A stretch of DNA of 62,635 nt, filler included, from Kipferlia bialata (GCA_003568945.1; 5 parts of 5 records of this genome joined end to end with filler, not necessarily neighbours in it), one strand, 5' to 3'; shown: positions 13,735 to 62,635, counted from the first letter of the whole stretch. Notes: generated from the sequence alone by a model not told the origin. Program-made: numbers and translations.

Positions 13735-16700
13735 ATGTCTGAGACTGGCCAAGGCACTCCCAGTCACACAGGGTAGGGGTATATGTATATATATATATAT
13801 ATATATATAGTGTTTCATGCATATCTGGTGGTGTCTTACCTACAATGGCAGCATGAGCAGCCAATGCGCTCCCACCATCACTGACCCCCAGTGGCTGATG
13901 GCTGTGTCAACCCTCATGCTGCACCCATCGAGGGCCTGGAGAAGGTATATATATCTCCAAAGGACGTGCTCTACCTATTTTCATATGGGTGGATACCAAT
14001 AATTATTCAAATACCCCTTTACATGTATACTCACATTTTCACCTCAGGTTGAGCAGTATCTGTGCCACCTTCTGCTGGCTCTTATACTCTGATGTGTGTA
14101 CTACATATGTATATATATGCATAAATATATATTTATACCTATTGTCGTACCCTCACCCCAGGTTGAGCAGTATCTGTGCCACCTTCTGCTGGCACTGAGG
14201 GCCACACACACTGCAGAGGGCATGGTGCCACTACTGAGAAAGGTTAGTATTTACAAAGACTAAGGATACAGTATATTTGTATACATATTTATATATACTA
14301 TTCCTCACAGCTCACACCAGGCCCTGCAGGCCCCAGTGCAGTCCAGGACCAAGACCCTCCCTCACCCTGTGGCACTGGTCACAGCACGCATCACGGCACT
14401 GACATCAACAACAGCCACAGAGGGAGAGGCAGAGGAGGAGGGTGCCGCAACCTCCTTTGCTGACGCGTTGGCCAGTGCACTGTGCACAGAGATTGATACA
14501 GGTGCATATATGTGTATATGTGTATGTATATATGTATATATAGATGTGTGATGCGTCAACTGTATCACACTGAGACTGACGCATAGACTGATGCTGATAC
14601 TGGTACTGAAATTGACACAGGTGCATATATGTGTTAGTTGTATCCACCGTCTATATGACTTTAGACACTAGACTGACACCAGCCTGCACTCTAGCCAGAG
14701 AGTCAGCCAGGGGCAGTGCCACCGATAGAGTCAACTGTAGACCAGCTGTGTCTGACCCCCTGTCCCGTATATGCGGCATCCTCTCCGCAGCTGTCTCTCC
14801 CTCGGTCTCAGTGTCACTGGCACAGGCATGCCTCACTCTATTAGAGATGCCATGCCCCAAGCACCCGGTGGCACTACTGAGGTTGGTATATATATATATA
14901 GATAGATATATATTATATTGGTATACTATATATACTCTTGGAGATACCATGCCCCANNNNNNNNNTATTATATTGGTATACTATATATACTCTTGGAGAT
15001 ACCATGCCCCAAGCACCCGGCACTACTGAGTGTGGGTGCATGTATATGTTTCTGGGAAAGATGTGGTATGTGAGATATTAAGATATTAACTGATTCTGAT
15101 TCTCAGGTCTGCCTCCCTCTGCGTGTCCAACTGTGCATCGGCACCAATGTTCGCAGACAGCAAGGTATTGATATGTCGCAATGTATATGCATATATATGT
15201 ATCTGCTATGGCACCCTGACTCCGAGGGGGACTGACTAGCCCTGTCTGTCTGTGTTGTGATGAACCATTCGCATATATATGTATATATATATATACATGT
15301 GTATGTATGTATATATATACATGCCGACTCTAGGCATTGGCTGACATGTCTGTCTGTGGTGCCAACCATACATATAATGCATTTGTTAATACTCCACTAT
15401 ATCCCCTCTCATGTATTATACAGACTGAGTCCTTTATCCTCTAACCCCAGTCCCTGACCGCCCTGTCTGTGTGTGGTGCCAACCTTCTGGTCTGTATGGC
15501 AGACAGTAGCCCACACTTAGTCATACCAGGTTTGTACTTACCCAGTAGTAGTATAGAGTGTATACGTCTACTGTTGCAGTAAACATATACATCTAGTGCA
15601 CCTTCCATACATATTGGAGAGATACTATCTTCCTTTCCCACCCACCCCAGAGCTCCTAGCCGAGTCCAGCCGTGTTGTGTCTGCATACACACAGGCACAC
15701 AGTGAGGGAGAGAGAGAGAGAGAGATGGTGGCCAGGGTGTACAGGGCAGCATTCGGGGCAGGGCTCAAGCACTCAGCTCAGCAGGTATATTATAGCATCT
15801 CCACTATGACATCGAGAGATGTCTTCTATTATCTACCTTTGAATTCATGTCATCTGACCTTCTAGGTCCGTCGCTTTGCCCTCAATGAGATTGCCCTTCT
15901 CCACTCAGTGGCAGACACTAAGATTGAGGGGCTCCTCTCAGCCAGGTATGTACACTTTGTAATACTCAGGTTTCTACAGGACTACCTCCTTGCAGTTTCC
16001 ACTCATCTCACGTAGTGATTTAGTTTATACTTCATCACGGGCTTCCCCCTAATCCCTAGGTATGTGCAGGACTACCTCCCTGTGTATTGGTGTATTACAT
16101 ATGTTCCATCATTACTATCCCCCTAACCCCCCAGGTTTGTGCAGGACTACCTGCTTGTTCAATGCCACATATAGTATACAGATGAATATAGTTTCAGCAA
16201 GACCATTATCCTTACATCCAGGTTTGTGCAGGACTACCTCCTTGTCTCCATCCAGGAGCACAGTATCGGTGTCCCTGCCCATGTTGCAGAGTGCAGAGAG
16301 GCATTCGAGAGGAGGGAGATGTTCAGACAGTTCCCAGAGTCAGGTAGTGTATATTTAGAAATACTATTTTCACATTTCTGCTATCCTTCCTCAACTCCAT
16401 AGTGCGGGAGATGACTATTCGTGCCGTTCTAATGTGACTCCCACTTCATTGTCATGCTGAAGTGCGTTTTTACCCCCAGGCAGTGTGCTGGATGAGTCTG
16501 AGCCTGAGGGTGTGTATGAGGGAATGAGGACAACTAGGTATGGGGGTGGTGTCAAGGTATTAACAATAATTATATATATGTGTGTGGATGTAACCTCAGT
16601 GCCTTTGTCGAGTCCATTGTGTCTGGCGTCCGTAAGCGTGTCAACAAGGCCCCCCATGACCCATGCAGTGTGGGAGGGGGGGCAGACAGAACAGCACCCT

Positions 16701-19700
16701 GCCTCGATGACCTCCACTCAAAGTATGTTCGATATTGATTCATATAGGATTTCTCCAGATACTCTGTTTACTCAACGTACGCTATTGGGTTATGCGCTCA
16801 CATGTGTATATCCACATCCTCTCACCCCCCCAGGACCCTTGACCGCCTCATCAGAGATGTCACAAAGTGCATCATCGCTCAGTCACTCAAGGTATTTGCA
16901 GTTGTAGATATACTGGAGTCCAACCACTAAGCACATAGTATTGTCACCTCACCCCTTCAAGTCTTTGACACTGCTGTCTAGTCCTACTTTTCATGAAGAT
17001 ATGTAGACGTCTACCAATTCTGACACCAAAAGGTCTTTGACGCCGCTGTCTCCCTTGGCTCCAAGACATTCTCCCCCGCCCTGTGTTTCTTTGGCAGCGA
17101 GAGGGCACTTCTGCTGTCCCTGTCGGCATCTCTGTACCTGTCAATGACACCAGAGGGGTTGTACGAAGGTACAGACAGCGCAGTCAGTATATATATCCTA
17201 CTCTACTCTCCATTTACATATATATATACAGCCTCACCCCCTAGCCATGTCTGTCCCTGAGACACTATCAGCTATTCAGTGCATCATTACTACCATTGCT
17301 ACCTACTCATTACTCACCCCCTAGCCATGTCTGGGCCTGATGGCGAGGCAGGCCCTGTCTGGATACACGAGAGACAGGTATATTTATTTTCCCTATATAT
17401 TGGGAACAGATACCCATATATCCGTCAGTGTGTAGTCTTAGTCTCATTGTCCTTACCCCTTCAGGTCCTTGTGAGCACCCTGTCCCTGTCATGTGTGTAT
17501 GTATATATACTGATACTGATACTACTCCATACATTATAATGCATACACATTGGTTGCTTGTCTAACCCTCCAGGTCCTAGTTGGCACCCTGTCCCTGTCC
17601 ATGCTGTCCTGTGGGTCAGCATCAGACGCTCAGGTAGGAAGATACTCAGCACAGAGTGGACATATACTATTTCACTTAATCAGCATCAGACGCTAAGGTG
17701 GGGAGAGGGAGTGTCTGATAATCTGTCAAGAGTGGAAATGACTCTAATAGCCTTAATCACTGGACTGTGATGCCAGGTGGCAGTATTAATTAATATCCCG
17801 CCGCATGACCTTCTCACCCATCTCCCTATGTGTATATATCCCTCCTCACCCCTAGCTGGACTATCAGTCCCTCCTCCACTCCGCCTCTCGTGTCATGTCT
17901 GTCCCCAAGCCCCCCTTCTCGGCCAGCGACAGAGTCTATGTGGTATCCATGTACTGTGCCACCCTAGTCAAGTCCATGTCCACACACCTAGCCCTGGGGG
18001 GTGAGGTGGTGCCTATGCTGCTGGAGTCACTGGGTATGCTACCTGTACCGGCATGTGCCCTGGTACTGAGGGAGTTGAGACGCTCTCTCCTCACTGCACC
18101 TGAGCATATTAAGGGTGTAGATGTATCTCACGCTGCCCTGATGGCTGCCATCCTAGGCTCCCTATCCTTAGACACCCAGTCCCCTCTGGAGCTGTCTGTC
18201 CTGGCAGCTCTCTCTCCCTCCCCCATCCCCATACCCATATCCCCCACTAATGATACCTTCCAGACCCTTGTCTCTGCAGTTGGGTACGGTGTCCCAGAGA
18301 CACTAGGTGATAGAGTCAGACAGGGTGTGATGATGGCACTTAAGGGTGTGGAGGGATGCCCTCTCTCCATAGTCTCCCATGTGCATCAGATGTCATCCCT
18401 GACTGATACAGACATTGAGGGGCTAGATGAGTGTGTGTCTAGTGCATCTCTTGGCAGTGTGGAGCAGAGAGCTGCCCTGACCCTAGTATGTGCACTGAAT
18501 GGGCAGGAGAGGCATGTCAACTTCGCAAAGGAGCAGGTGCGTTGTTGTCTCACTCTGGTATAGATACCAGGTGTGTTTGTGTGTTCTAACCTCCAGATCC
18601 CTGCCCTCCTCCCCCTCCTCGACCCCAGTCAGCCACTCCCAATGCTGCTAGTAGGTGGGGATCGGTACTCTACTATAGTGTTAGAATGGCAATGCCTACA
18701 GTATCAGTGCATTAGTGTTCATTGATACACTGATACTCACCTCCAGGCAAGGCCCTGAGGCACCTGGGTACCCTGCCCTCCCCCCTGCCCCCTCTGCCCA
18801 TGCCCAAGACACTGGAAGAGGCCATACCTGTATTCACACTGTGCGTCAGTCTGTGTCTGGCATGTGCCACAGTGGATGCAAGGTATTAATATACATATAT
18901 ATATCATACTTGTATATATATATATATATATATATACATATATGAATGTATATATATATAGATGTGTCAGTGTGTCAGTCTGGCATGTGCCACGGTGGAT
19001 GCTAGATATATATTTATATATCATACACTACTCATATATATTTGTATATATAGGTGCGTATACGTATATATATATCAGTGTCAGTCTGTGTCTGGCATGT
19101 GTCATTAGTGGATGCCAGGTACATACATTGTACTGCAAGAGTATGTGTTCTCTCACTCTGTCCCGTTCTGACCCCTCAGGGATGGATCCAACCTGTGTGT
19201 GGCATATGTGGAGAAGGGTGAGTATTGGACACACACCTACATGTTTGCGTTTACATACTGGTTGTATCATGGATTGACACTTCTGACTAAATACTCCCAT
19301 ACTTCCCCTCATCCCAGCCCTTGCCATCGGTGTCAAGTACAAGCGTCGCTTTGCATCCACCCTCAGGTATATGGTAATTTCACATTATTCAGATGTCAGA
19401 GAATCGTGTCTATCTATGGTATGTAGTATTACTTTTATAGTACAGCAATTGGTGACATACCCTTACATGTAGGAGAGGGGTGGGTGAGATCCTTGGCTCC
19501 AGGGACTTCCTCCTGGCAGCCACAAGGAGTGAGACAGTCAGAGGTATGTATACACTGTATATCATACATGAATTCTGTATACTGACACTATTTCAGTCAT
19601 TGTGTGGAATAGTTGCAACAAGGAGTGAGACAGTCAGAGGTGTGTATATGTGTAAATGGTAGATATAGATGAGTATCATTCTCTTCATCTCACCCACAGC

Positions 19701-22700
19701 TTCCTATGTCTCCCTGTGCACCAGCGCCCTATCATATTCTTCTTTATTCTTCTAGTCTCTTTCTCCGATATATATATAGACATATGTGTGTGTATTAGTA
19801 TGGATACATTTGTGTCTCACTCCCAGCTTCCTATGTCTCTCTGTGCACCAGTGCCCTGTCTGATGCTGTCAACCACCTGTCCAGTGTGCATCCCTCACTC
19901 ATGCCGGTATTGGAGGTATGTGGAATAATAAGTGATGTGTGTGTATTTCACACACATATAGTAGTGTTCTCAAACACATATTCTATGCCTCTCACCCCTA
20001 GACCCTCTCTGCCATGCGTCAGTCCGAGGCCGAGGAGTGTCTGCCCACTGTACTACCCCTGGTGCTCAGCTGCATATTCATGACAGTCGACACAGAGAGG
20101 TATCGGCTCTGGATATTGTATGTATGTAACATAGTTCTCTTCTTATAGAATATTGTGAACTATGCGACAGTAGACACGAGTCATTAATTATAGGCGCTGT
20201 ATAATATATGTACACAGTGTGTATATACATGTACTCTCACCCCCAGTGGTCTCCCCCCTGCCCCCATGTTGGCTGGAGCTGTCCAGTCTCTGGATGATAT
20301 ATATTGTATATCCATATATATATATATATATATATATAGATAGATAGATATTGAATGATAGATATACTCTAACCTAAGTGGTCTGCCTCCTGCCCCCATG
20401 CTGGCTGGTGCTGTCCAGTCCCTAGATGAGGCATCTCTAGTGGGGCCAGCAGAGGCACCAATCCTGTCCACATACGCACTCAGGCTCAAGGTAATCATAT
20501 ATATATGTATATATATATATACAATGTCTCTGTACGTACATGTCTGAGGCACCGATCCTGTCCACATACGCACTCAGGCTGAAGGTAATCATATATATAT
20601 GTATATTTATATATACAATGTCTCTGTACGTATATGTCTGAGGCACCAATCCTGTCCACATACGCACTCAGGCTCAAGATGTGCAGATGTATATATATAT
20701 ATATATATATATATACATTGTACATTATTGCATTTCCCATGTCTCTATATGCAGAGGCACCAATCCTGTCCACATACGCACTCAGGCTCAAGGTAATGCA
20801 TGTATTTGTATATATATTACTGCAAATTACCAAGTGTATTTGTACATCGGATCTTTAGGCCATCTCTGCCCTACCTATGCCTATAGATATTCATTATAGA
20901 ACAACACAGTCTTGTACTATCGGGGTACTATCTCACTCTCAGGCCGTCTCTGCCCTGCACCGCATTGTGTCCATTGTATATATCTATCTATATATGTTTA
21001 TTATGTTATAGTGTATGTGGATACATATATACTGCACATGTCTCACTCTCAGGCAGTCTCTGCCCTGCACCGTATTGTGTCCAATGTCCAATGTTTATTG
21101 TATATATTATATTATAGTGTATGTGTATTCATAGACTGTACATGTCTCATCCCCAGGCCGTCTCTGCCCTCCACCGCATTGTGTCCAATGCCCCTCCCTC
21201 CGTGGCATCTAGTGTGTTTGTGATGGGGGTGGACATCATGAACGCTAGAGATACAGGTATGTATATGATACATGTAGGAGTCATGTCCTTCTTTGTGTCC
21301 ATCATATTACGTTTAACTCCAGCTGCCTCTGGGGCTCTCTCCCCCCTCTCTGCCTCCTGTCCCGTTGGCATATTCAACACAGTCTGTCCACAGGCCATCA
21401 TGCAGCCAGACAAGAAGGTAGAGTAGTGTATGTGTTGAAATATTATAATGATATATAGATGTATATTCAAAGGTAATAATATTGTAGCCAGACAAGAAGG
21501 TGTTACACGCATGTAGATACGAATGTATTAGATATATAGATGAATGTTTATAGATAATAATAATAGATGAATCTATGTGTATACATCTAACCCCCAGGCC
21601 TCCACGTGGGGTGCCCCTGCCCGTGGTCTGCAGCACATCCAGCGGTGCATGAGGATGGTTGTATCCCATGCCACGCCCACCCCTGCCCTGGGTGCTGCCC
21701 TGTCCTCTCTCTTTGGATCACTGGTGGGGACAGGCTGGGCCAGGGAGACTAGGTATAGATGGGTATATGTATATATACAATAGTATATACATAATTGTAG
21801 TTGATTATATGTATCGGTGTCTATATCTCTATATCACTGGTGGGTACAACAGGGTGGGTCATTGTTACTACAGTATTATCGTATTATGCTCTCACCCCCT
21901 CATGGAGACTGTGGAGCAGACCATCACTCTTCATATATATCCATGAATAGATGATTGTATGGGGATGTATTACTACAGTATCATACTATGCTCTCACCCC
22001 CCAGGGAGACTGTGGAGCAGACCATCGCGGCTGCCCTCCTCAGATACCCTGACCCCCATGCTGCACTGTACACTCTGTTCAAGGAGGTATGGATGGATGT
22101 ATATGTGTGTATATATATATGTGTGTTTATATATATATGTATATATATATAGACAGAGAGAGAGAAAGTACATATATCCCTGACCCCCTTTGCTACACTC
22201 TGTCCAAGGAGGTATGGGTGGATTTATATGTACTCACCCTCAACGTCATATATATTATCACTCTTGGGCAATGTGGGCCATCCTCTAGACACATATCAGC
22301 ATGGATAGTGATGAATACATTGACACCTATGTATATTCCTTCTCCCACCCCCAGGGCAACGTGGGACATGATCTAGACACGTATCAGCTAACATATATAT
22401 ATATATGTATATATATATGTATATATATATGTATATATACATATTCCTTCTCTCACCCCAGGGCAACGTGGGCCATGCCCTGGGTGCAGGTGGCACCCCA
22501 TACGCACAGGCCAGCTGCGTCATAGCAGGTATGTATGTATATATGTGAGTGTGTGTGTGAGAGAGAGAGAGACGTTGTCCCCCCCTTACCCCAGGTCTTG
22601 TCACCTTCCAGACTGTGGTCCTAAAGGGTCAAGACGCCATGTCCACCGTTGACTTGGTCAGACTCATATCCCCTGCCCTACTGGCCGGTACCCACTCTGT

Positions 22701-25700
22701 CAGACCAGCAGCATTTGCAGTGGTGCTACAGCTGCACGAGGCTGCGGTGGCTCAGGTGGGTATAATGGAGTGATATACGATAGTAGTCTCATGGCACTAT
22801 ATCGGCATGTTAAATGGGTTTCCTTTGTCTATTCACCTCTTACCTCTTCTCTCACTCCTAGGAGGCTGCCAACCCCACAGTGGGAGGGGGCATGACCAAG
22901 CCTGAGAGGTGGCTCCAGGTATGGCATATGTAGTAGTGATACTCAATGAAGCCGGTTATTCCATTGCTATTGCATAGCATCCATCTAACCCCCTAGGCCG
23001 TCGGCCTGTCCTAGTATCAGTCAATCTGAGTGTATATATTATGTAATCCATCTAACCCCCTAGGCCGTCGGCCTGTCCCCCGAGATGGTTCAGACCATGG
23101 ACATGCACTTCAGAGTCACATCCGCACAGGCAAAGTTCAGGTATTGAATGTATATCATCTAAAGATGTAAGAGGGGTGTGTTCTGTATATAGACAGAGTA
23201 TTGTGGCTTTAGAGTCACCTCCGCACAGGCTAAGTTCAGGTGGGTATTGAACGTAGTATATTTCTTCTTTTACTAGGAAATTGAAAACGGCTATTTGGGG
23301 TATGTATGTTGATTAAGAGTGAAGATTCCATGCACTCACCCCAGGGAGCTGTTCCGTGTCATGACCCCAGCCGAGGGGATGCAACACGCATGTCTGCCAG
23401 GTATCAATGGTGATGGGTATATTGAATCTACCATGTCTATGATATCGTTCTAACTTCATTTTGTTGATCGTATCATTACCATGCATGTCTGCTAGGTATC
23501 AATGGTGATGGGTATAGTGGATGATATGGCATTGCCACACCCCACTGATTCTAGTTGCACTTCTTACCTATACGTGTCAGTTTTGACACCTCATTCACCC
23601 GAGACCCTAATACTGCCTACACCGTGTCCTATATATATATGTATATATACTATCCTAGTCACTAGTTAAACACATCCAGTATATATATCATAACCAACCC
23701 CAGACCCCAATGCTGCCTACACCGTCTCCGTGTCCGACCTCTACCACTCAGCTGACAAGGGAGGGGTGGCTGCGTTCAAGACAGCAGCAGCACTCGGAAA
23801 GTGAGTTCGGATCATCCTCTCTCTCTAACGATATACCACCCTCCCCTGCCCCCTTCCTTCTCTCTCTCTCTATATGTAAATATACATATCTGTATCCTCA
23901 CCCCCCAGGGCCTATGACCTCCTTGGCGAGCTGAGGAACAGAGAGCTGGAGGTGGTGGCAGCGGCTGCAAAGGTACATATCTAGTGTCTACATATGACAT
24001 ATACATTCATCATGGATATGTATGTATTCATATGCAGAGCTGGAGGTGGTGGCAGCGGCTGCAAAGGTATTCATATATACTTGGAAATTGTTGAAATTGC
24101 AATGTATGACTGATAGGTCTCTTCTAGTTGAGAGTTATCATACGTAGGATCATCACTGCATATGTCATTGTTGCTATATCAGACATTGATTCTCACCCCC
24201 CAGGCCGCCAATGTGGAGAGAGAGGCCCTCCTGAGACAAAAGATTGAGAAGGACAGGGAGAGAGAGGTCAATGTCCTAGTTGCACCCGAGAGCCCACCTG
24301 CACAGAGACCGGCAGAGGGAGAGGGAGAGAGAGAGAGAGAGAGAGAGGCTGTCCCTGAGAAGGAGGGTGATACTGAGATGGTGGTCAGGCAGAGGAAGAT
24401 TATGGTGGAGGCGCCCACCGAGAAGGTATCGTGTAGTTTTGTGCCTATCGACATATATATGCTTGTATTGTCTCACCTCTAGGCTGCCGCTGAGATGTTG
24501 GCTGTGTCCACCCCTGAGACTGATGAGACATCATCCACCAAGGAGTGTATTGTGTGTGCCTCTCTGCTGGACAAGCCACCCAACCTGGGGGGACTCGCTA
24601 GATCAGGTGAGGGATGATACTTGTAGAATACTCGAGTGTTTACTATCTGAAGTATGGGTATATAGTCATGGATGTGTTGAATATGACTGTACATGTTAAC
24701 TCCTGCTGAGATCTTTGGCATACCATGTAAGTATCATCTACCCGACTCGGCTAGCACAAATGTCGTACCTATACATATGTATATATATACCTGTTAACCC
24801 CAGCTGAGATCTTTGGCATGTCGAGCCTTGTCCTTCCATCCCTGTCAGTCACAGGGGACCCGGTGTTTAAGGTATATATAGAGTGGCTTAATCATATGTA
24901 TTGTATCGTATTCTTACTGGAATCCAGTCACAGGGGACCCGGTCTTCAATATGGGGCATGCCCAATGACACGTGTATTCTAGATGCTTACTCACCTATGT
25001 TCATACTCACCCTAGGCCCTGAGTGTGTCTGCCCACCTTCACGTACCACTGCAGGCTGTCCCCCCTAGTGACCTTAGGCCATGGCTCAGACAGAAGCAGA
25101 GGGAGGGGTATGCCCTGGTGGCACTGGAGCAGGTGTGGTACATATTATCCATAAGTATAGATGTTCAATTTATCATATACTGTCTTGATACTTTGTTTCT
25201 GTATGCCCTGGTGGCTCTGGAGCAGGTGGGTGTCACCGGTGTACCTTAGTATTTGTTGTTGTGTTGTATCTGTTGGGCGTATAGATGCCACCCATATCAC
25301 CATCACCTTACCCCAGTGTGAGACCAGTGTGTCCCTCGAGAGTGCCTCCCTTCCAGCTAGATGTGTCATAGTGCTAGGCAATGAGAGAGAGGGAGCACCA
25401 GACGACATACTGGGTAGGGTCTACTACATATATATCGCTACCTATACATCCCATTGTGTATATAGCATTGCAGTCTTCCTCCTTGACTCCTAGGCATGTC
25501 TGACCTCCATGTCCCCCTTGATCCATCTCTCTCTCTCTCTATCTATCTCTCTCTTTCTCTCTCCCTCTCACCCCTAGGCATGTGTGATCTCCATGTTGAG
25601 ATCCCCCAGCTCGGATGCATCAGGTGGGTACATTGCAGTATTATATCAATACATAACTGTTTCAATATATTCATATAGATTTATGGTTAGTGGTCTCTAT

Positions 25701-26062
25701 CACTATCCAGCTCGGATGCATCATGTGGGCGACGGATACTCTACATGGTTTCAATACAATATGTATTTTCCCTCATCAGTCACCCTCTGAATATACACAC
25801 TGATGTTATCCCTCTCTAGCTATACTATTGTTTTTAGTCCCCCCCCCCCCTGACAACTATTATACCTCTTTCCCCAGGTCTCTGAATGTGCACACTGCAG
25901 CTATATATATACACATATAGATTTGTATATATATATATATAGTATATATATATAGTATTAGTATATATATATATATATCTTTCCCCTCACCTTAGGTCTC
26001 TGAATGTGCACACTGCGGCTGTCCTCCTAGAGTGGAGGTGGATATCCCAGCACAAGCTGTAG
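13735..26062 (+). CDS. TARBP1: TARBP1/Trm3-type tRNA (guanosine-18 2'-O)-methyltransferase: long helical N-terminus plus C-terminal SpoU domain; 5' end probably off contig
   Basis: Spliced C-terminus: ECIVCASLLDKPPNLGGLARS|AEIFGMSSLVLPSLSVTGDPVFK|ALSVSAHLHVP..GYALVALEQ|CETSVSLESASLPARCVIVLGNEREGAPDDIL|GMCDLHVEIPQLGCIR|SLNVHTAAVLLEWRWISQHKL*. All three SpoU motifs are present. About 11 kb of upstream same-strand exons fit the large Trm3/TARBP1 size. Confidence 0.88.
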
Positions 26063-27735: not shown

Positions 27736-30700
27736 CTTGGTTTAGAAGAGAGACATGCAGGATCTGACTCTGGTGGCATGCTCGGATACACAGCCACTGA
27801 CCCTGAAAGACACCCCCACCCCCACTCCTCCGAGGACAGGGACGTCAGGGTGCGCCTGGCAGAGCTGTGCACCCTGTGGAGCATAGCGCAGACGCCATTC
27901 TACTACGTCACAACTAGGTAACGCTGCTTATCTTTATATATGTACGGGTAGACTCCATCCTACCCTGGCACAACAGGTGGGGGCATATGAGGGTGCCAGA
28001 TCTAACGACGCCGACAATTATGTGTCCTCTCTGAATTGCTATGAGCACCATGTCTCTGTGTTCCCTAGCATACCTGTACCATACCCTTGTGACCCCTCAC
28101 CCAGGGCTGAGCTGACCGAGGTTGTGTCCTTCCTGGCCATGCACTCTGCCATCGGCATCGACCTCGAGCACTCCTCCCTCAGCTACCACGGCACGGTGTC
28201 CCTCATCCAGGTGGGGTAATAGGTTATATGTATATATATACTGTATATACAGGTGGGGTTAAGGGTTGTGCCAGTGATCACCTTCTGTATGAACTCTGCC
28301 AATACAGACAGGCTGTGTAGACCTCCCTCCCTCACCCCGCAGATCTCTGTCCCTGGCTATGACTTTGTGCTGGATGCATATGCCCTGTACCCCCACATGC
28401 ATCTGCTCAGAGGTATCATTGACACTCTCACACAGGATATTGGTGACACTGGCAGTGGCGTGGATACATATTTGTGTGTCAATGAGTGTTTATCATGCAT
28501 ATATATATTGGTCAGAACGTGCAGTACCTGCAATCACAAGGGCGATATCTGTTCAGAGTTTGTTGCAATTGTACACAATTGCCATGCATGTATGTGCGTC
28601 TTCACATCCTCCTACTTCTGCCAGGTGTGTTTTCCGACCCCACCATCATCAAGGTGCTACATGGGTCCGACAATGACATCCTCTGGCTCATGAGGGACTT
28701 CAGACTCTACATAGGTGTGTATAGACATGTCTCTCATTCCATGTATGGGTTTGTATATGTACCAAGATGGGTGTGGGGTCAATACCTCAGACTCTAGATA
28801 GGAATGAACTATATCAAGCGCTTGTACAGAGTGCTCATTTAAGAATGTATATATGCGACAGGGAGGTTGGCATCATATAGCAGTGTCTGGTTAGGCAACA
28901 CCATCCTGTCCCACTGTGGTACCTGTTTACTTGTCAATCCTCCCCCCATCCATATATCCATGCATTCTGTAACACTGGTCCCGACCCTGACCCCAGTGAA
29001 CCTGTTTGACACGGGTAGGGCCGCCAGGGTGCTTAGGAAGGGGGCCGGCCTGGGGTCACTGCTGAGGGAGTGCTTTGGGATACAGATGGACAAGGAGCAG
29101 CAGGTGGGGACACACGGTGCATATACATATACACTGCAACTCAGTCACTGGCTCTACTGATGGATACACGTCTCTGGTACTGTCCACCTACCCCCCTTCT
29201 TACCCCAGACGTCAGACTGGTCCCTCCGGCCTCTGTTGCCAGTCCAACTGTTCTATGCCAGGTACCAACCCTACATATGGCACTTCAACCCGTGTATACT
29301 AACCGTCTGAGTGTGTATCCCCCTACCTCATACAGGTGTGACACACACTGGCTGCTGCCTCTGTTCCACCGGCTGACTGCCCTCCTGGCAGAGAGGGGCG
29401 GGTATGCCGAGGAGCAGGCATGGCTACACAGCAGACAGGTACCAGTGGTAGTGGCTATGTGTATGTGTAGAAGTATATAGTGAAGTATATATATATAGGG
29501 TATGGCTACACAGCAGACAGGTACCAGTGATAGNNTGAAGTATATATATATAGGGTATGGCTACACAGCAGACAGGTACCAGTGATAGTGTCAGTGGATA
29601 TCAAGTATAGAGTGGTCTTGATCTGCGAGGTCGCATGTCGTGACTGGAAATTATATATATATATCTATATTCACAAGTATGTGAAGTTCCCTGTTTCTAC
29701 GTGGTGACTGAGTATTCCATTCCGTCTCTTTCCGCCTCTGACCCTAGGTGTCGCTGAAGGTGTTTAGACCCACACCCCCAGACAATACTCGCCATCTACC
29801 CCTCCTGGCAGATACCTACGAGGGAGACATGGACCGACACCGCAGGGGCAGGGGATCCCATGTGCACACACCGCGTATGGGGGTGCGGGGCCAAGCGTCT
29901 GTGTCACCTGTAGCCCAGGCACTCCTTCTGCACCTCACGGCATATGTGGACACACTAGGCGTCTACCTCAATCTGTCGCCAGGTATGTATGATTTAAATG
30001 TCGTCGCGCCCTAGTGTGGACCTCCCATAGCCTCCGTCTTCATGTAGCCTCTCTCTCCTCTCTACCCCCAGACACTGTCTGTGGCGGACGGGACCTGGCC
30101 CGATTGGCTCTGTCCCTCTCTGTCATCCCACCCTCCGCCATCTCGAGGGAGAGTGTCCTGTTCGGCCTCTCCCTCAGTGCCCCCCCTCTCATAGCTGCCA
30201 ATGCCGCAGAGATAGCCCTGCTGGCCCAAAGGGTGCTGCAGTACAGAGCCCCCCCGCCACACACCCAGCCACACACCCAGCCACACCACGGCCATGGTCA
30301 AGTATACCCCCCTGGGGAGAGGGTGAGGGAGAGAGACAGTGGAAGGGAGAGCGCTATGAGAGACAGAGCCCCCTCCTACGGTAACACCCGGCCCCCCTCC
30401 CAGCCCAGTGGGGGTTGGGGGGCGAGAGAGGTTATGGCACCGCCTGGGGGTCCCCCACCCCCACCCCAACCCCAATCCCAGTACCAGTACCAGTATCCAG
30501 CCACCAACCCAGGTATCAGTAGTATGTTTGTCACTCTAAGCTGCTCGATACCTCCTCTCCCTCCACTCTTACCCCAGGAGTGCACTGTCTGGATGACCTG
30601 TACCATGCGGTGGGGTGGGACATGCCCCAGGACAATAGAGGGGGGTGGGACGGCAGGGGGAGAGACAGGGAGAGGGAGAGAGCGAGGGAGGAGTGGCAGT

Positions 30701-31811
30701 GGGAGAGAGAGGATGCTGCGGAGTCAGATGGAGAGACAGACGGTGTAACTGCTCTCAGTAGTGGAGTCGACATCTTTGCAAGGTGAGGCGTTGTGTCATT
30801 ACTCATGTAACGATACACCAGAGTGAATGGGGGACTGTGTTGCAGAATATGGATTGGATTCTGTTGTGTTACCCCCTTACTCATTGCAGGGCTCTAGACC
30901 AGAAGCTCATCAAGCAGAGTTCTAGGGACAAGCACGGTCCCCCCCAGAGTGGGAGGGGCAAGGAGATCTTCAGACAGTTTGGCGATGCCTCGTTACATGG
31001 GGCGGCACCTGGATACAGAATAGGTGGGGTAGACCTAACGAATGCTGATGTATATAGTTGCCCTACTGTAATATACTGTACTGTATATAGAGGTATGTGT
31101 CGTGCCCTACTGTAATATACTGTACTGTATATAGAGGTATGTGTCGTGGGTGGGTGGCCCTTGAGTCAAAGATCTTGATGCTGCTAATACTTCAACTTGC
31201 ATACACCACATCCCCCTCTTCCCCCAGGTGACATAGGCCCAGGATCTAAGGTCTCAGCCGTCACAGGAAACTCCCTGTCTGTTTCCGTCGAGTTTGCGTC
31301 TTCTGTAGAGGGAATGTCTGTGCTGGTATGTGACATAAGTAATATGACATAACTTGGCATAGTCTTGTAGTTGTATATAGCTTTACACAACTAATCTTGG
31401 TAAATATCCGGAAACATCGTTGTCTCCTGAATCACAGCTCATCGCGTTGGTGTTTTCTGTGACACTTGTGTAGTTAGGCCTTTAGATTTTCGTGTCTTCC
31501 TCTTCCCCTCTGTCTCTGAGTCTAACCCCCAGGACGTGCTGCACCAGACAGGTATCGACCAGGTGCTGGGGCGGAAGGAGAGGGAGGACATCGCCCACAT
31601 TGGGGCAGGCAGAGACAAGGAGGGGCCTAGCCGCAGGGAGAGGGAGAGGAACAGACGAGAGGCCAGGGGGAGTAAGGGGAGGGAGAGAGACGGTGATGGC
31701 AGTCGAGATAGCCGATCTCGCTCCTCTGGTCATAGAAATAGTCACCCCCGCGACAGGTCTGGGGAATCGAACCCAGGGAGAAGGCGAGGTTATGATGACC
31801 CAAGATTGTAG
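27736..31811 (+). CDS. RRP6: Exosome-associated DEDDy 3'-5' exoribonuclease Rrp6/EXOSC10-like; true start not resolved
   Basis: Spliced: AIGIDLEHSSLSYHGTVSLIQ|ISVPGYDFVLDAYAL..|GVFSDPTIIKVLHGSDNDILWLMRDFRLYI|VNLFDTGRAARVL..MDKEQQ|TSDWSLRPLLPVQLFYAR|CDTHWLL. Exo I, II and III motifs are intact. Ends in a low-complexity R/G/S-rich exon with a stop at 31811. Confidence 0.9.
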
Positions 31812-37615: not shown

Positions 37616-40373
37616 ATGTCCGGCACGTCTGGAGCTAGTAAGAGCCGAGCTGTGATTAATGAAATTGAAGAGGTATATATGTACTCTCGTGCTACTGTCA
37701 CATGCGTTCTCGTTGTGTATGCACGCTATTCAGTGTATTCTTACCTATGTGGCTGCAGACTAAGATGATACTGCATCTGCCGTGGTGTCACACTGAGTGA
37801 TACTGGATTGATTGTTGAGTACTCTCTCTCTCTCACCCCTTGATAGTCCTGACTCCATTCCTACCCCCCCCCCCCTTCACTCTCTCTATATTGAGTCTCG
37901 GTGACTGTGTGAGTCTCTCTCTCTCTCCCCCCCTCTCTCTCACTCCTTTCCATCCTGACCCTAGGTCCTTGGCACAGGGTATAGTAGTCAGTATATTCAC
38001 ATACACTCTCTCTCTCTCTTTCTTTATCCATTTATCACTGTATGATCCCATCTCACCCTAGGTCCTTGGCACTGGGTATGACACATCAAATGTCGGTGCT
38101 GGTATGACCAGGTTTAGTGAGGTAATAGCAAATATGTATATGATTGTATACTCTCCACATACCTTTTTGCACTTGGTCTTGCCACCCCTCCCACCGAGAG
38201 GTACTCCTTTGCAATATTGCATATATATATATAGATATACCAGACACATATGTATCTGGCTGTCTGTCCCTACATTCATATCTGTTTACCCTAGTCCTTT
38301 GCGGCCCCTCCCACTGAGAGGGCAAGGGGCAGAGAGAGAGACAGAGACGCATATGGGACAAGAGGGCCCCTGAGGGGAGACTACAGGTATGCGCTTTATA
38401 TACACCCAACATGTTGTTTCCTTCTGTATTTGTATGTGATGTGTATTGTTTTATCTTTCCATTAACGTCCAGAGGCGACCTCACTCCACAGATGGGCAGA
38501 GACACAGCTCCTAGGTATATATACATATCCACACTATATTGGTGTATGTATGTCCTGTATGTATGTATATACTATAGTATTAGACACACTCCACGTATGG
38601 GCAGAGACACAGCTCCTTGGTAGCATAGAAGTATATAATTGATATTATCAGATAGGTACATAATTATTATTAATAATGAATATAGTATAGAATATATACC
38701 CACAGATGTCTCTTTGTAATCAACACTTTCAGGGCCTCCATAGTAGCCCTAGACCGTCTCTCTCTCTCTCAAACGCTCCCTATATACCTGTCATACTCAT
38801 TAGTATCTAATAATGCAGAACTTCCATCCTTCTCTCTCTTCTTCTTCTCTCTTCCTTCTTCTTCCTCTTCCCTCTTTCTCTCTAAGCCCTCAATCTACTG
38901 TATCTGTCTTTCCCCAAATTCCAGGGCATCCACGCTGACCTGGATGGTCTGTCCCTCATCCTATCACTACTATACTATATAATTATGCAGTTATATGTAT
39001 TCATGTATATATGCATGTACATACTCATATGTATCTCATTCCAGGGCATCTACGCTAACTCTGGACAGTCTGTCCCACAACCAGTCATTCGCTCAGACAA
39101 GGTATAGACATATGAATATATATATACGTAAGGGATGTAGGATGTATATGGATGTTTGTGTATATAGTGTGTCTGTCCCACAACCAGTCCTTTGCTCAGA
39201 CAAGGTATGAATAGTATATATATATATATATACGTATATACATTTCATTCGTATGTAAGATAGAATAGTGATAATGTGTGTGAGTAGATGTGTCTGTCCC
39301 ACAACCAGTCATTTGCCCAGACAAGGTATGAATGTATATTTGGTTATGTATATATTCATGTTTCTCACCTAGGATGAAACAGTCGAATACCGACTGAGAG
39401 AAGGAGTGAGGTTTCATTATATAAGTGTGTATCTATATTCTCTTTTGTTCCTTATACCCCAGAGGTGCCAGAGAGAGGTCCGAGTCATTCGAAGACGCAG
39501 CAAACAAGGTATTATTCTGTATATACTTATCTATATAGGTCCTATAATAATAGGAAGACGCCGCAAACAAGGTATTGGACTATTTTGGTATTGACTGATA
39601 AGTATGTATCGATGCTTTCATGTAATATATATATATACTATATATCGTAGATAGTCTCTCTTCATATAATGACTTCAGGCCATATCCATAGTGGATGCTG
39701 TCCTATCCATACCACCTAGGCGCATATGATATGCATTGTATTGTATATATCTTTATCTATATGTATTTAGGTACTAATATACCAGGCCATATCCATAGTA
39801 GATGCTGTCCTGTCCATATCACCTAGTTATTACATGCATTGTATTATGTATATACATATATATCTGAGTGAATATAGATATATATACTAATATATACTAA
39901 TATACCAGGCCATATCTATTGTGGATGCCGTCCTGTCCATACCCCCAGACACCTATATATATAGTATGTCATACGTATCAAATATTTACATGTATATATT
40001 CTAACATGTCAGGCCATATCCATATTAGATGCCGTCCTGTCCATACCCCCTAGGCGCATACACATTCCTATGTATATGTTGTCTATGTATACTTACAGCA
40101 TATTTACAATTCCATGTACTAATATGTAGGCCATATCCATCGTTGATGCCGTCCTGTCCATACCACCGAGGCGCATACACATTCCTATGTATATGTGTGT
40201 ATACTTACAACATATTAACATATTCATACAATAATGTCATCACATATATACAGTATATATGAATTAGCATATATGTACTAATACACCAGGCCATCTCCAT
40301 AGTAGATGCTGTCCTGTCCATACCACCCAGACGCATATCCAAGGACCAGATCAGAGATATGCTGAATGTATAG
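37616..40373 (+). CDS. Small multi-exon uncharacterised protein (~145-160 aa) with echo-filled introns
   Basis: MSGTSGASKSRAVINEIEE|VLGTGYDTSNVGAGMTRFSE|SFAAPPTER..GDYR|GDLTPQMGRDTAPR|ASTLTLDSLSHNQSFAQTR|GARERSESFEDAANK|AISIVDAVLSIPPRRISKDQIRDMLNV*. Splice phases are consistent, and the frame is independently supported by synonymous differences in the echoes. Confidence 0.7.
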
Positions 40374-40431
40374 AGAGGGGGAGAGAGAGAGATTATCCAA
40401 GGACCAGATCAGAGACATGCTCAATGTGTAG
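39679..40431 (+). repeat. Array of five partial copies of the last exon's 5' end plus one post-stop copy of its 3' end
   Basis: AG|GCCATATCCATAGTNGATGCNGTCCTNTCCATA at 39679, 39786, 39909, 40013 and 40130. The real exon is 40290-40373 and the tail copy is 40394-40431. Confidence 0.92.
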
Positions 40432-54871: not shown

Positions 54872-54888
54872 CGGTGTTTTTACCCCCG

Positions 54889-54920
<32 letters not shown>

Positions 54921-54935
54921 TGGTCTAACACTCAG

Positions 54936-57900
54936 ATACTACCTCCTTGGTCTATCCATACCATCACCAGATGTCGACAACGGGGTGACCATGAAGGTAA
55001 GACATACTCTCTCTATTCAAGTACCTAGTGAGCATTCCTCTGGATACTCCCGATGCTGCCTTCACACTGTAACATTCTTCTCTTCTTGTTCTCCCTCCTC
55101 TAACCTCTCTAACTCTAGGCCCACCTGGGTGCCTGGCTTACCACCATCCCCCCTGCCGCATGTGCGGCCCTGCCCTTATTACTACCGGCCAGTGACACCT
55201 CTCTCCCCCTCTCTGTTGTGCTGTCCTTAGTGGTCCATGCAGTATTCATAGCGCTGGCTCTCCTCCTAACTAGGCTGCCTCGGAACTTCATATCGATGTC
55301 AGCAAGAGAGAGCCTGTCAATAGCAATGTTTCCCATAAAGCCGAGCGCGTTGCTGCTGCTTCGCGATGGGTGTCTCTCGGCCATATTCCAGGTGCATAAT
55401 ACTCCCTCCATCCACTCTCCTCCTTCTCTCTCATTTCCTCACCCAAGTCTCTCTTTGCTCTGGTTGTGACTGGGGCCCTTACCCCCGACTCACTCCTCTC
55501 TCTCTCTCTGGTGGCTACTGCAGATCGAGAGAGCATCACGTCTGCCCTCTCCCTCTCCACTCTTGCTGTGCTAGTGGTGGTCTGGCAGGCCATGAACGTG
55601 TCAGTGTCTCTGATACTCGGTATTCACCCTGAGAGGTGTGAAACTGCTGAAATATGGTCCTCCTACGGTGGAGGAGTATGTATATTTGTAGGTAGCCAAC
55701 GTCTAACTCCCAGGAACTCTTCTAGCATCACACCTAGCGTGGACTCTGCCCTTTCCAAGGTATGTATACTAATGTGTTTTCGCATGTTTATAGTGGTGTG
55801 ATATATCCTACCCAACCCTCTTCTTTTCCTCACCACATGCCTTTTGGTTCCTTGCCGTGGCCCTGGGCTCCCTCGCTCTTGACACAGCAGTGCCTCTATG
55901 CTGGTTCCTGGTTGTATACAGTGCCGGAGTGCTAGCCCCCCTCAGTGCATTTATCCCAGGTGTGAAGGCCAGACCACTGCCTTATACTGTATATACTCCA
56001 TCTCCTCACGCCAGATGTGCTGGAACTCCTTCAGTTCTATGTCACAGGCACTGTCGTCCCAGCGGCCCTCTCCCTCTCTCCATCGAGGCTTGCACTACCT
56101 CTTCTCAAGGTTGTATCAGCTGCCACTCCCCTTATTGCCTGGGGATATGCCTCTAAGGCTGAGTCCGGCACCACCCCATGGCTCCAGATGGCCGCAGGTC
56201 TCTCTGTTATCATCTCCCTCCTGGTGGTGCCCCTCTTGGGTACATTCCTTCTGCCCAGTAAGCGTGGACCTGGCTTCAACGTAGCATGGGTCATACACGT
56301 GGCTGTGGTCGTTGTCCCCACTGCAGTACTCTTCCTAGACAGCCAGGGGGACTCTCTCTCTGACATAGCCTCGCTAGTGTCTCTAGGTGCCAATAGTGCA
56401 GTCATGTGGGTGCTACTACTGGTCCTGGTAGTCCTGACTGGGATTAGCGGCCCTGTCCCCTTCCGTACACACACGGTGCGGCAGAAGGGAGGGGCGGTCT
56501 CCAATACCAGGAGCATCGTCCTCAAGATAGGTGAGAATTGTCTAAGCCATGCACGTGTATACATACCATTGGTATATTGTCTTGCAGCAAGTATTCCTCC
56601 GCGAATCTCACTCCCAGGCTCTGTGGTAGCGGTTCTCTTCAACCTGGTCCTGTCCACAGACGGGGCCTCTGGCAGTGGCGTGGAGTCAGTCTTTAGTAGG
56701 CTTGTCCTGGCTGATGCCTCACCCTTATCCAGTGCATCAGACATGGCACTCACCCTGGCGTGTCTGGTCGCTGTGACAAGGTGTGTCTCTATACCGTGTT
56801 GGATGTTAATAAGGTATTATACATCTTTGTATTGACCATACCAACATGCAGGTGTCTCCCCCTGGCCATATCCGATCCAGCCAGACTCATGGTGCACACA
56901 GCTGTGGGGTCTATTATTGGACAGGTGTGTGATATTTTTCTGCATTCACAGGTATGAGGGGAAGGAATATGTAGATCATTACTCACCCCAGACTGGTGTG
57001 CTCCAGAGCCTCTCCTCCTCGATCCCATCCACCACTCTGGTCAACACATTAGTGTCAGAGTGTGTCGATATCGCAGCTAGGAGACTCTTCGATGCATTCA
57101 GGCTCTGTGTGTGCCTCTGGAAGAGTGCCCTACACCCCACGGAGGACCCTGTCATAGACGCCGGGAAGTCCTCACCTGGGGCTCTCAGTGTAGGTACTAT
57201 AGCACATGTAATTGTATATATATTTGTATATATAGTCTAGTTTCACTGTTGACCCCAGGTAGCCCGTACCGCCGCACCAGCAACAGGGAGGGTGAGAGCA
57301 GGAGAGAGAGAGGAAGGGGAGGGTCTGGTGGCCCTGTCTGGGCAGCACCAGTCCTAGTTATAATCATCATAGCGTCACCCGTATACGTGCCCTTCTGTGC
57401 CATATTTGCCATCCTAGGTTGCCCCTTGCGGCCTCTGTTTGGGACACCCGTGTTGGTGCCCGGTTACAGGTATACTCCTCAATATATCTCTCAATATTTG
57501 GTTCTATTGAGATCTCTCCCCTTCTATACTGACCAAAGGCGTGGTCGCTCCTTCCTCAACGCCACTCCCCCTCCCGTGGCCCTCTCTATCTCCAAGAAGG
57601 GTGCCTCTCCCTCTCCCTCCACGGTCTCTGGGGCATCATACTCTGTCCTGGTCAGTAGCCTCATAGGCGACAGGAGGTTCAGGAGGTGGGTATCTTCATG
57701 CTTCCATATTTCCACATTTTATAGTCTTTAGTTTCTCACATACCAGGATCCTTCGCACTCAGGTTGGAGGTGCCGGTGTGCTTGGAGTCAGTGGTATGCT
57801 AGGTGGGTAGTTATAGGTGGCAATACCTACTCCCTTCCACACCAAGTCTCACTCTCAGGTGGTGTTGGTGGTGTTGCTCCCAAGGATGTTGTGCTATGTA

Positions 57901-57993
57901 TGCATGACAAGGACCTAGTCATGCTCAGAGTGATGGGCACCACAGGAGGGGGGTACCTCTGCCAGTGTAGGGCACTGGAGCTGCAGGTGTGAC

Positions 57994-58028
<35 letters not shown>

Positions 58029-59100
58029 ATATGTGGTCTAATCCCTAGGAGACTTCGTGCCACAGGCGAGAGAGGCGTATCCTCACCGAGTACCTGGACA
58101 GCGTCTGTGCAGGTATTTCAACCCATTTCTAACCTAGTTTGTTGTACCCCCATTCTCATCCTTAGGCTCTGGGTCTGACGGTGTCCCGGGTCCAGTCGGA
58201 TCATATGGGAGATGGGGTGAGTGCGATTGTCACTCAAGCGCCGCTGTTCTAATACAGCCGTGACACAATGTATTTCTCTTCCTCACACCAGGCGTTGCCA
58301 GGCCATGCGGTGTGGTATCAGTGCCCTGTTTTAGCTACAGGTAAGCTGGCATCAACTATCTTCCGGTTCTGCATATATTTCGCGTCTCATCCTCACCCCA
58401 GCAAGTACCGCCTGCTAGGTGTCTTTGACAGTGTGGATGTCAGGAGGGAGTTCCCCGCCCTGCTGCTGCGTGTCCTGACCCATGTCATCAGATACAGATC
58501 GGGTGGGGGAGGCTGTTGCTACAGTAGTTGTCTCTGTAGTATTTCCAACATCCTCTAGATTGTACCCTTACCCCAGACTCTTCCTTTGTCCGCATCCTTA
58601 TGCGCTATGTGGCCTGTCTGGATATCCCAGAGGACACTCTGCAGGTATGAGGCATATTGCATACGCACAATGCTCACTCTCCCATACATACACTCTCTCT
58701 TTCTACTCTATACAGTTATGTCTCACCCCTTAGACCCTTTCTCAGCAGCACAGCACGGCAGGCGAGGTCAGGGAGAGAGACTCGATGGGAAGCAGGTATG
58801 GGATATATATCTACTGAGATGTACAGCCTGTGTACAAATATGTATACTTACATATACATTCATACCCACCTTAGGGAGGCCATGACCATGGTGAGACCAG
58901 ATAGTAGACCAGCAGCCCATAACCCAGGGGCAGTGGATGCCGAGGAAGGTATGTATATTGTGTTCTATAGTATACCCCTCAAACACTCTCTCTCCCGTTC
59001 TCTCTGACCCTCCAGCTGCAGACGATGCCCTGAGGGGTATGTCCAACTCAGCCAGGGGGGCGCCATACTCACCAGTCCTCGCAAGGTATATACATACTAC

Positions 59101-59133
<33 letters not shown>

Positions 59134-62589: not shown

Positions 62590-62630
<41 letters not shown>

Positions 62631-62635
62631 ACAAA

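What the first reader, a model, noticed from the sequence alone, without database searches (positions are those of the whole stretch)
39679..40373. Six different synonymous spellings of AISIVDAVLSIPP(RRI) in tandem, each behind an AG acceptor
SEEN: relative to the real last exon (40290), copy 39679 has 5 silent and 0 replacement changes. Copy 40130 has 6/0, copy 40013 has 5/1, and copy 39909 has 5 silent changes in its first 7 codons. Copy 39786 has 2 silent and 1-2 replacement changes. Four of the five echoes keep a CTAA(C/T)-N-AG acceptor as good as the real one, and copy 39679 runs straight into TGA after RRI. INFERENCE: six distinct codings exceed what one diploid carries, so this needs a history of many alleles, polyploidy or a mixed culture, or alternative last exons giving near-identical C-termini.
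Basis: partly seen in the sequence, partly recalled or inferred. Interest (0 to 1): 0.8.

Follow-up and report, generated by a model that had tools for sequence, protein, structure and literature searches.

The report
Introns that archive old exon alleles
In the free-living protist Kipferlia bialata, introns hold dozens of partial copies of the neighbouring exon ends that differ from the working exon mostly at silent positions, likely because each copy was once a working allele left behind by out-of-register recombination, which would be a single-genome record of sex and very high diversity.

Summary
The array is real: one DNA contig spans all six copies at flank depth. The gene is Kipferlia bialata KIPB_004363. 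The copies carry 13 distinct silent changes and 2 replacements. RNA contigs show 40290 as main last exon; their break points fit minor splicing to copies 1 and 5 (junction letters unseen).

The array is the extreme case of a window-wide pattern: 73 partial exon copies in seven genes, acceptor copies upstream and donor copies downstream. In internal exons, where using a copy would mostly break the frame, fourfold sites differ 5.2 times more than zerofold sites; about 2.1 is expected if only the live exon is constrained. So the copies diverged while coding. Best reading (0.55, inferred): former working alleles left by out-of-register recombination in a diverse, outcrossing population; translation of copies 1 and 5 may add constraint. 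No second isolate was found, so this is untested.

The scan noted similar copies in sea urchins, one with weaker silent bias. Junction-spanning repeats are known (human F7); I found no report of this pattern in print.

The parts
40290..40373 (+). Main last exon of KIPB_004363 (27 codons + TAG)
   Evidence: X3 record 17 joins the upstream exons to it; X2 record 15 starts at its AG with contig depth 46
39679..39729 (+). Copy 1: 16 codons, 5 silent/0 replacement, then TGA; minor alternative last exon
   Evidence: NCBI model KIPB_004363 ends here; X2 record 12 starts at its AG with 17 unlaid letters
39786..39826 (+). Copy 2: 2 silent, 1 replacement (P12S); no sign of use
   Evidence: X2 record 12 runs unbroken through its acceptor
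39909..39947 (+). Copy 3: 13 codons, 7 silent/0 replacement; use unresolved
   Evidence: its acceptor lies in a hole of X2 cover (39808-39929)
40013..40060 (+). Copy 4: 5 silent, 1 replacement (V5L); shares break point and spacer start with copy 5; no sign of use
   Evidence: X2 record 13 runs unbroken through its acceptor
40130..40177 (+). Copy 5: 6 silent/0 replacement; minor alternative acceptor, frame runs 34 codons to a stop
   Evidence: X2 records 13/14 break at 40128, extra 90 depth x nt in that bin
40394..40431 (+). Copy of the last 12 codons and TAG behind the stop codon; 3 silent/0 replacement; no acceptor of its own
39463..39508 (+). Penultimate exon; phase-0 donor to the last exon
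39554..39571 (+). Donor-side copy of the penultimate exon's end, 1 silent change, GT kept
39045..39101 (+). Internal exon
39171..39204 (+). Donor-side copy of exon 39045-39101, 2 silent/0 replacement, GT kept
39292..39325 (+). Second donor-side copy of exon 39045-39101, 2 silent/0 replacement, GT kept
38473..38514 (+). Internal exon; its donor-side copy at 38587-38617 differs at two bases of one codon (replacement)
38295..38386 (+). Internal exon; upstream copy at 38179-38201 has 2 silent, 1 replacement
38062..38121 (+). Most upstream exon of my model (not in the NCBI model); acceptor copy at 37965-37982 has 1 silent change
   Evidence: inferred from frame continuity only
13892..26059 (+). SpoU-domain gene KIPB_004361 (41 exons) carrying 30 such copies; main independent test set
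   Evidence: My model matches the NCBI protein at 1472 of 1473 residues and neither holds a copy; Pfam SpoU E 3.4e-25

Best explanation
The five upstream copies are partial tandem duplicates of the last exon's acceptor and first 13-16 codons, and each was likely a working allele of that exon until out-of-register recombination between homologous chromosomes left it behind in the intron. Steps: (1) Shown: short duplications across splice junctions are frequent here, and only those that leave one whole exon persist, so acceptor copies lie upstream and donor copies downstream. (2) Shown: the copies differ from the live exon and from each other mainly at silent sites while keeping AG or GT, although the intron DNA beside them is close to unrelated. 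(3) Inferred: once a first copy exists, a live exon on one chromosome can pair with the copy on another; an exchange inside the shared codons turns that allele's exon start into a new copy and puts another allele in the live position. Ordinary crossovers in the spacer reshuffle copy and live exon further. The differences are then mostly allelic diversity (roughly 0.10-0.12 at silent sites window-wide, more in this gene) plus a little neutral decay (about 0.03). (4) Supported by graph geometry: the spliceosome mostly uses the last acceptor but leaks to copies 1 and 5, giving minor C-terminal variants; selection on these may help keep this array unusually clean (inferred).
For: Polarity: 36 of 38 upstream copies begin at the exon start, 30 of 35 downstream copies end at the exon end, none reversed. 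Differences by codon position 23/15/101 in 73 copies. Fourfold/zerofold ratio 6.3 for all, 5.2 for 65 internal-exon copies, 5.4 without the five copies of the finding; one copy per family, bootstrap 3.7-10.9, 0 of 2000 at or below 2. Simulating 'only the live exon is constrained' through the same detection filter gives median 2.1-2.2; the maximum was 4.1 in 300 runs at matched divergence and 5.4 in the lowest-divergence setting. The NCBI-verified gene alone gives 33/168 against 15/529, ratio 6.9. 41 of 46 internal copies with an intact AG/GT would break the frame if used, and their ratio is 5.3. Zerofold differences lean GC to AT (21:6, decay-like), fourfold ones are symmetric (18:18; Fisher P 0.036). 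AG kept in 33 of 36, GT in 24 of 29, while ungapped identity drops from about 0.93 in the exon part to about 0.3-0.45 beyond 13 nt into the intron (background about 0.3). Copies 4/5 and 1/2 share spacers yet differ silently, as exchange inside the codons predicts. Two of three informative site pairs show four gametes. Toy population model: ratio 1.7-3.1 without recombination; 5-12 in the four settings with theta 0.15-0.3, rho 10 or 100 and fast turnover. In hyperdiverse Schizophyllum, silent diversity is 0.13-0.20 and crossovers prefer exons (PMC4576712, PMC4209137, abstracts).
Against: No second isolate was found, so no allele was seen directly. The sequenced culture shows no heterozygosity here, so the diversity must be historical. 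pS in this array (0.37) and gene (0.32) exceeds the 0.20 reported for Schizophyllum (PMC4576712 abstract). In internal exons the changes polarised to copy branches are only 16 silent to 15 replacement (P 0.005 against 0.28, 0.04 against 0.35), weaker than 9 to 2 here (Fisher P 0.08). The predicted age trends are not significant: nearest copies cleaner P 0.057, distal halves more decayed P 0.096. Both four-gamete pairs involve codon 5 and one recurrent change explains them. With slow turnover the toy model gave only 2.5-3.8 at theta 0.15-0.3 even with recombination; it ran 3 replicates per setting and is noisy. Break-point microhomology is weak (AT fraction P 0.01, TA/AT dinucleotides P 0.26). 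Intron flanks are more diverged than silent sites, which needs fast slippage of TA-rich DNA (assumed). Sex has not been observed in metamonads (PMC8516963, passage).
Confidence: 0.55

Rival explanations
1. Selection in cis: the copies are alternative last exons whose proteins matter, so each is kept free of replacements where it sits.
For: Of 32 acceptor sets simulated, only those with copies 1 and 5 (with or without 3) reproduce X2 records 12, 14 and 15. The two used copies have 0 replacements; the two copies with a replacement show no use (chance 3 in 10). The NCBI model ends in copy 1. This array is cleaner than internal copies (pN/pS 0.034 against 0.19).
Against: Cannot explain 65 internal-exon copies, the donor-side copies or the copy behind the stop codon. 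Use is minor (contig depths about 6 and 3 against 46; contigs do not measure levels). The variants lose the last 11 residues and gain unrelated tails or none.
Confidence: 0.15
2. Relics of a hybrid or polyploid past: the copies come from a few deeply diverged subgenomes or cryptic species that were later lost, not from ordinary alleles.
For: Explains coding-type divergence and the very high pS of this gene (0.32-0.37) equally well; fits a now homozygous culture.
Against: Six distinct spellings need at least several donors; silent counts per copy are not overdispersed across 73 copies (chi2 76.7, 72 df, P 0.33), so no discrete donor classes show.
Confidence: 0.15
3. Clonal DNA-level swapping: copies and live exon exchange sequence in cis often enough that every copy is regularly tested as coding DNA.
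For: Shared spacers with different codons; sharp end of similarity at the splice site; fornicates lack Ku-type end joining and Rad51A and keep two Dmc1 (PMC8516963, passages).
Against: Exchange fast enough to purge replacements would also erase silent differences (population-genetic reasoning, not run as such); refreshing copies from the own exon without recombination gave ratios of 1.7-3.1. No deleted or swapped form is seen in DNA contigs (rare forms would be dropped).
Confidence: 0.07
4. Ordinary decay: dead same-chromosome duplicates, silent bias only because the live exon is protected (the reading given for a sea-urchin gene in e1-9861148).
For: Explains polarity and the near-identical young copies (for example 20546-20792); zerofold changes look like decay. 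The finding was picked as an extreme case.
Against: Predicts a silent share near 0.40-0.46 and a ratio near 2.1; observed 0.64-0.70 and 5.2-6.3 (P 5e-7 for internal copies). A chain of snapshots needs 17 silent steps on the live lineage while five dead copies gain only 2 replacements.
Confidence: 0.05
5. Assembly artefact: diverged haplotypes of a mixed culture stitched in tandem.
For: Short-read draft with many small gaps in arrays elsewhere in the window; X1 may be the source of the assembly, so it is not independent sampling.
Against: A separately assembled contig reproduces 39246-40419 without a difference at flank depth; X2 contigs bridge copies 1-2, 4-5 and 5-6.
Confidence: 0.01

Closest known systems
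Human F7 intron 7 37-bp minisatellite spanning the exon 7 / intron 7 boundary (PMC1557585, abstract read)
   Same: A repeat unit holds a splice site, so spare splice sites line up in the intron; for donors the most upstream one is the live one, as in the donor-side copies here.
   Different: F7 units are identical and the pseudo-sites stay silent. Here units are 100-160 nt with near-unrelated spacers, copies differ at silent codon positions, they occur at many exons, and two acceptor copies appear to be used.
Internal tandem repeats at exon-intron boundaries in human segmental duplications (PMC2812944, passages read)
   Same: Tandem duplication across a junction by slippage or unequal crossing-over, sometimes with alternative transcripts.
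   Different: Rare there (27 intron modifications); the word 'synonymous' does not occur in its main text. Here 73 copies lie in one 62-kb window with a strong coding-type signature.
Tandem exon duplication giving mutually exclusive or alternative terminal exons (recalled, no paper read)
   Same: Homologous exons in tandem, purifying selection, alternative acceptors; fits copies 1 and 5.
   Different: The copies are partial; most belong to internal exons and would break the frame if used (41 of 46).
Intron gain by tandem duplication of exonic AG|GT (potato RdRp case PMC4974935, search listing only; mechanism recalled)
   Same: Tandem duplication changes gene structure without changing the protein.
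   Different: Needs an AG|GT inside the duplicated part; present in 1 of 65 internal copies. Here introns grow, they are not created.
Hyperdiverse outcrossers such as Schizophyllum commune (PMC4576712, PMC4209137, abstracts read)
   Same: Silent diversity of 0.13-0.20 and crossovers drawn to conserved exons are the conditions my reading needs.
   Different: Those data come from many isolates; intronic copies of exon ends are not mentioned in the abstracts.

Membership tests
Junction-spanning tandem repeat (F7 IVS7 type) | Repeat unit spans an exon-intron boundary and carries the splice site | tested here: met
   All five copies start at the exon start behind AG; AG kept in 33 of 36 window-wide
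Junction-spanning tandem repeat (F7 IVS7 type) | Near-identical head-to-tail units | tested here: not met
   Among the TRF rows shown only copies 4-5 form an array (117 nt, 86%); periods are 104-160 nt and spacers align only in part
Junction-spanning tandem repeat (F7 IVS7 type) | Spare sites normally silent | tested here: not met
   Copies 1 and 5 appear spliced; 2 and 4 show no use; 3 unresolved
Junction-spanning tandem repeat (F7 IVS7 type) | Copy number varies among individuals | not testable with these tools
   No other isolate found
Alternative terminal exons from exon duplication | Each copy is spliced to the upstream exon in mRNA | tested here: inconclusive
   Supported for copies 1 and 5 by contig geometry only, letters unseen; not for 2 and 4
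Alternative terminal exons from exon duplication | Purifying selection on the encoded peptide | tested here: met
   13 silent states against 2 replacements; when the selection acted is not shown
Alternative terminal exons from exon duplication | Whole-exon duplicate with its own 3' end | tested here: not met
   Copies hold 13-16 of 27 codons; RNA contigs run on through later copies
Intron gain by duplication of exonic AG|GT | AG|GT inside the duplicated segment that lets copy and exon be joined in register | tested here: not met
   1 of 65 internal copies; the five copies of the finding were not in that test
Captured alleles of a hyperdiverse outcrosser | Coding-type divergence in copies that cannot be translated usefully | tested here: met
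   Ratio 5.3 in 41 frame-breaking copies against about 2.1 expected
Captured alleles of a hyperdiverse outcrosser | Silent diversity of 0.1 or more and short-range recombination among isolates | not testable with these tools
   Metagenome scans found nothing

The most novel reading that the evidence does not exclude
The introns of Kipferlia bialata are a fossil archive of its population: thousands of exon ends from other chromosomes, frozen beside the live exon by out-of-register recombination. One homozygous genome would then give silent diversity of 0.1-0.3 and show outcrossing in a free-living metamonad, a group in which sex has not been observed, and would show introns growing mainly by captured splice junctions.
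Probability: 0.5. Interest if true: 0.8.

Novelty: new variant of a known kind. Interest (0 to 1): 0.62.

Why it matters
If true, sex and population diversity of an uncultured-type protist can be read from one genome, which makes an open question on metamonads testable with data already public. It also gives a mechanism for intron growth in the most intron-rich fornicate, and a natural test bed for splice-site choice: 15 of 36 acceptor copies and 18 of 29 donor copies score as well as the live site, yet the live one is mostly chosen. In practice, gene models in this genome can pick a minor copy, as KIPB_004363 does.

Tried and rejected
No whole genome is held, so all counts are for this window. 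The letters of the RNA junctions to copies 1 and 5 were not seen; their use rests on contig break points and depth sums. X4 laid nothing and X3 one contig; no run is on record as RNA, though spliced joins show that X2 and X3 hold RNA. An automatic gene finder over-called copies as exons; I curated genes A, B, C, E and F by hand (stop-free, GT-AG), took G and H from the finder (one copy removed from G), and left out gene D (41170-44300; four acceptor copies at 41579-41945) because its frame was unclear. Only genes A and C were checked against NCBI proteins. The scan kept ungapped matches of 18 nt or more and dropped low-complexity ones, so older or gapped copies (for example 38732, 38925) are not counted. 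Protein function: no Pfam family, no relative among 1.84 billion representatives, no usable Atlas hit, model pLDDT 0.39; I ran no structure prediction. Other isolates: 0 matches to a degenerate pattern; 46 pattern hits and 0 confirmed for KIPB_004361. Literature: 10 searches found no description of such copies in Kipferlia or of silent-only partial exon copies as captured alleles; most subscription journals are not in the library and no supplements were read. The genome paper has 0 hits for 'duplicat', 'ploid', 'heterozyg', 'synonymous' in its main text. Rejected: the exon-like piece 39373-39410 as part of the mRNA (skipped by X3 and by the NCBI model); mutation bias alone (AT-biased simulation still gives about 2.1).

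Full report
Setting. The window is five scaffolds joined by N-spacers. A 41-aa exon matches Kipferlia bialata KIPB_004361 at 100%, and the gene of the finding is KIPB_004363, a 103-aa hypothetical protein with no Pfam family, no relative among 1.84 billion representatives and no usable Atlas hit. No whole genome is held. The genome paper (PMC5874029, passages read) reports 124,912 GT-AG introns and two coverage peaks, 10x (bacterial) and 130-150x, and does not mention duplications, ploidy or heterozygosity in its main text.

The observation. There are 13 distinct silent states and 2 replacements. DNA run X1 holds one contig over 39246-40419 with 0 differences at depth 454, against 393-465 on the other long unique pieces, and no other letter. 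X1 may be the source of the assembly, so this checks assembly, not sampling. The frame is that of the NCBI protein and fits the phase-0 donor at 39508. The copies' acceptors score below the live one.

Which acceptor is used. X3 record 17 joins 39055-39099, 39461-39503 and 40288-40357, skipping all copies; it is one letter short at the last junction, next to a run of A (a homopolymer error is my inference). In X2, record 15 starts at the AG of 40290 (depth 46), record 12 starts at the AG of copy 1 with 17 unlaid letters and no cover of the intron before it, and records 13 and 14 break at the AG of copy 5 with an extra 90 depth x nt in that bin. I simulated the k=31 graph for all 32 sets of used copies; only {1, 5, live} and {1, 3, 5, live} give 17 unlaid letters, a 190-nt record at 40128-40317 and a start at 40288. 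So copies 1 and 5 are most likely minor acceptors, 2 and 4 show no use, and 3 lies in a hole of cover. The junction letters were not displayed, and contig depths do not measure levels. The NCBI model ends in copy 1. If used, copy 1 gives a 16-residue end and copy 5 a 34-residue end instead of 27.

The pattern is window-wide. I built models for seven genes; the largest matches NCBI at 1472 of 1473 residues, and no copy is in either model. A codon-blind scan of the adjoining introns found 73 partial copies: 36 of 38 upstream ones start at the exon start, 30 of 35 downstream ones end at the exon end, none is reversed. This is what survives of short duplications across a junction when one whole exon must remain (inference). 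Density is uneven: 30 copies in 40 introns of gene A, 23 in 13 of F, 12 around the 6 exons of C, but 1 in 28 of G and 0 in 68 of H, whose introns are shorter and richer in G+C.

The silent excess is more than protection of the live exon gives. Differences fall 23/15/101 on codon positions. Fourfold sites differ at 70 of 387, zerofold at 38 of 1333, ratio 6.3; internal exons alone 52 of 327 and 35 of 1141, ratio 5.2; counting each change once, 6.1 and 5.4. If the copy is neutral and only the live exon is constrained, simulation through the same filter, with transition and AT bias, gives 2.1-2.2 (maximum 4.1 at matched divergence, 5.4 in the lowest-divergence setting). The excess holds in 41 copies whose use would break the frame (5.3) and in 64 without an AG|GT swap site (5.2). 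Zerofold changes lean GC to AT (21:6), fourfold ones do not (18:18). Identity is about 0.93 in the exon part and at AG/GT, but near background beyond 13 nt into the intron. A copy of the last 12 codons behind the stop has 3 silent and 0 replacement changes (not significant alone). Weaker points: polarised changes on internal copy branches are 16 silent to 15 replacement, and gene F alone is only marginal (P 0.036).

Mechanism. In one clonal line only one copy can be the live exon at a time, so most branch length among six copies would be neutral; the data need several lineages coding at once, either on different chromosomes or side by side. Side by side is possible for copies 1 and 5 but not for internal copies. 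Different chromosomes is therefore the simplest general reading: a first duplication creates a copy; misaligned pairing of a live exon with a copy on the homologue, with exchange inside the shared codons, converts that allele's start into a new copy with the old spacer. Copies 4 and 5, and 1 and 2, share spacers but differ silently, as this predicts. Subtracting decay, fourfold divergence of 0.16-0.18 minus twice 0.03 suggests silent diversity near 0.10-0.12, in the range of Schizophyllum (0.13-0.20; PMC4576712 abstract), where crossovers prefer exons (PMC4209137 abstract). A toy forward model gives ratios of 1.7-3.1 without recombination and 5-12 with theta 0.15-0.3, rho 10-100 and fast turnover, but 2.5-3.8 with slow turnover (3 replicates each). 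Fornicates keep meiotic genes and two Dmc1 and lack Ku and Rad51A, and sex has not been seen in metamonads (PMC8516963, passages). All of this step is inference: no second isolate was found, and this gene's pS of 0.32-0.37 is above any value I read, which leaves room for a hybrid past or for added selection on the used copies.

Comparison with what is known. Repeats across a splice junction are known (F7, PMC1557585 abstract; PMC2812944 passages), so the duplication itself is a known kind. The array fails two of the F7-type features and is not a whole-exon duplication. Ten searches found no report of this density or of coding-type divergence in such copies. The scan's own notes describe similar copies in sea urchins: one with a silent share of 43 of 107, put down to protection of the live exon, one silent-only; I did not check those data. 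The F7 lead came from those notes and.

Verdict. Real, correctly described, and part of a larger pattern. New variant of a known kind. Interest 0.62: the silent excess in copies that cannot be usefully translated is well supported within the window; its cause is inferred and directly testable.

Noticed in passing
window 1-13630 and 54872-62635 versus 13729-54771: Copies are almost absent from the two G+C-rich scaffolds with short introns (1 in 96 introns) and dense in the three A+T-richer ones (72 copies), suggesting genome compartments.
   Followed up: partly
window 39373-39410: A 38-nt exon-like piece with a strong acceptor and a GT donor is skipped by X3 and by the NCBI model; inclusion would shift the frame. 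Origin unknown.
   Followed up: partly
window 20247 and 20379: The live exon uses an AAG acceptor while its upstream copy (6 silent, 0 replacement over 51 nt) has the textbook pyrimidine-rich acceptor; how the cell avoids the copy is unexplained.
   Followed up: no
window 40746: One X2 contig reads A where DNA run X1 reads G, at full contig depth 8; allele, culture mutation or error.
   Followed up: no
window 39503-40290 junction: X3 record 17 is one letter shorter than the modelled mRNA beside a run of A; likely a homopolymer error.
   Followed up: partly
window 39679-39729: The public model KIPB_004363 ends in the minor copy 1 and has a different start from my model, so the main isoform is probably mis-annotated.
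   Followed up: yes
window 41170-44300: A gene with at least four acceptor copies (41579-41945) and further copies downstream; frame unresolved, left out of all counts.
   Followed up: no
window 52460-53067 (- strand): Five acceptor copies of one exon carry three or four different acceptor flanks, each still shaped like a working acceptor, even where the exon part is identical.
   Followed up: partly
window 13892-26059; 27736-31811; 91-13610 (- strand): Neighbouring genes: SpoU methyltransferase, Trm3/TARBP1-like (Pfam SpoU; subfamily name recalled); RRP6-like 3'-5' exonuclease (Pfam hits under the cut-off; name recalled); a long gene with a BEACH-like motif (recalled, no Pfam hit for the exon tested).
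   Followed up: partly
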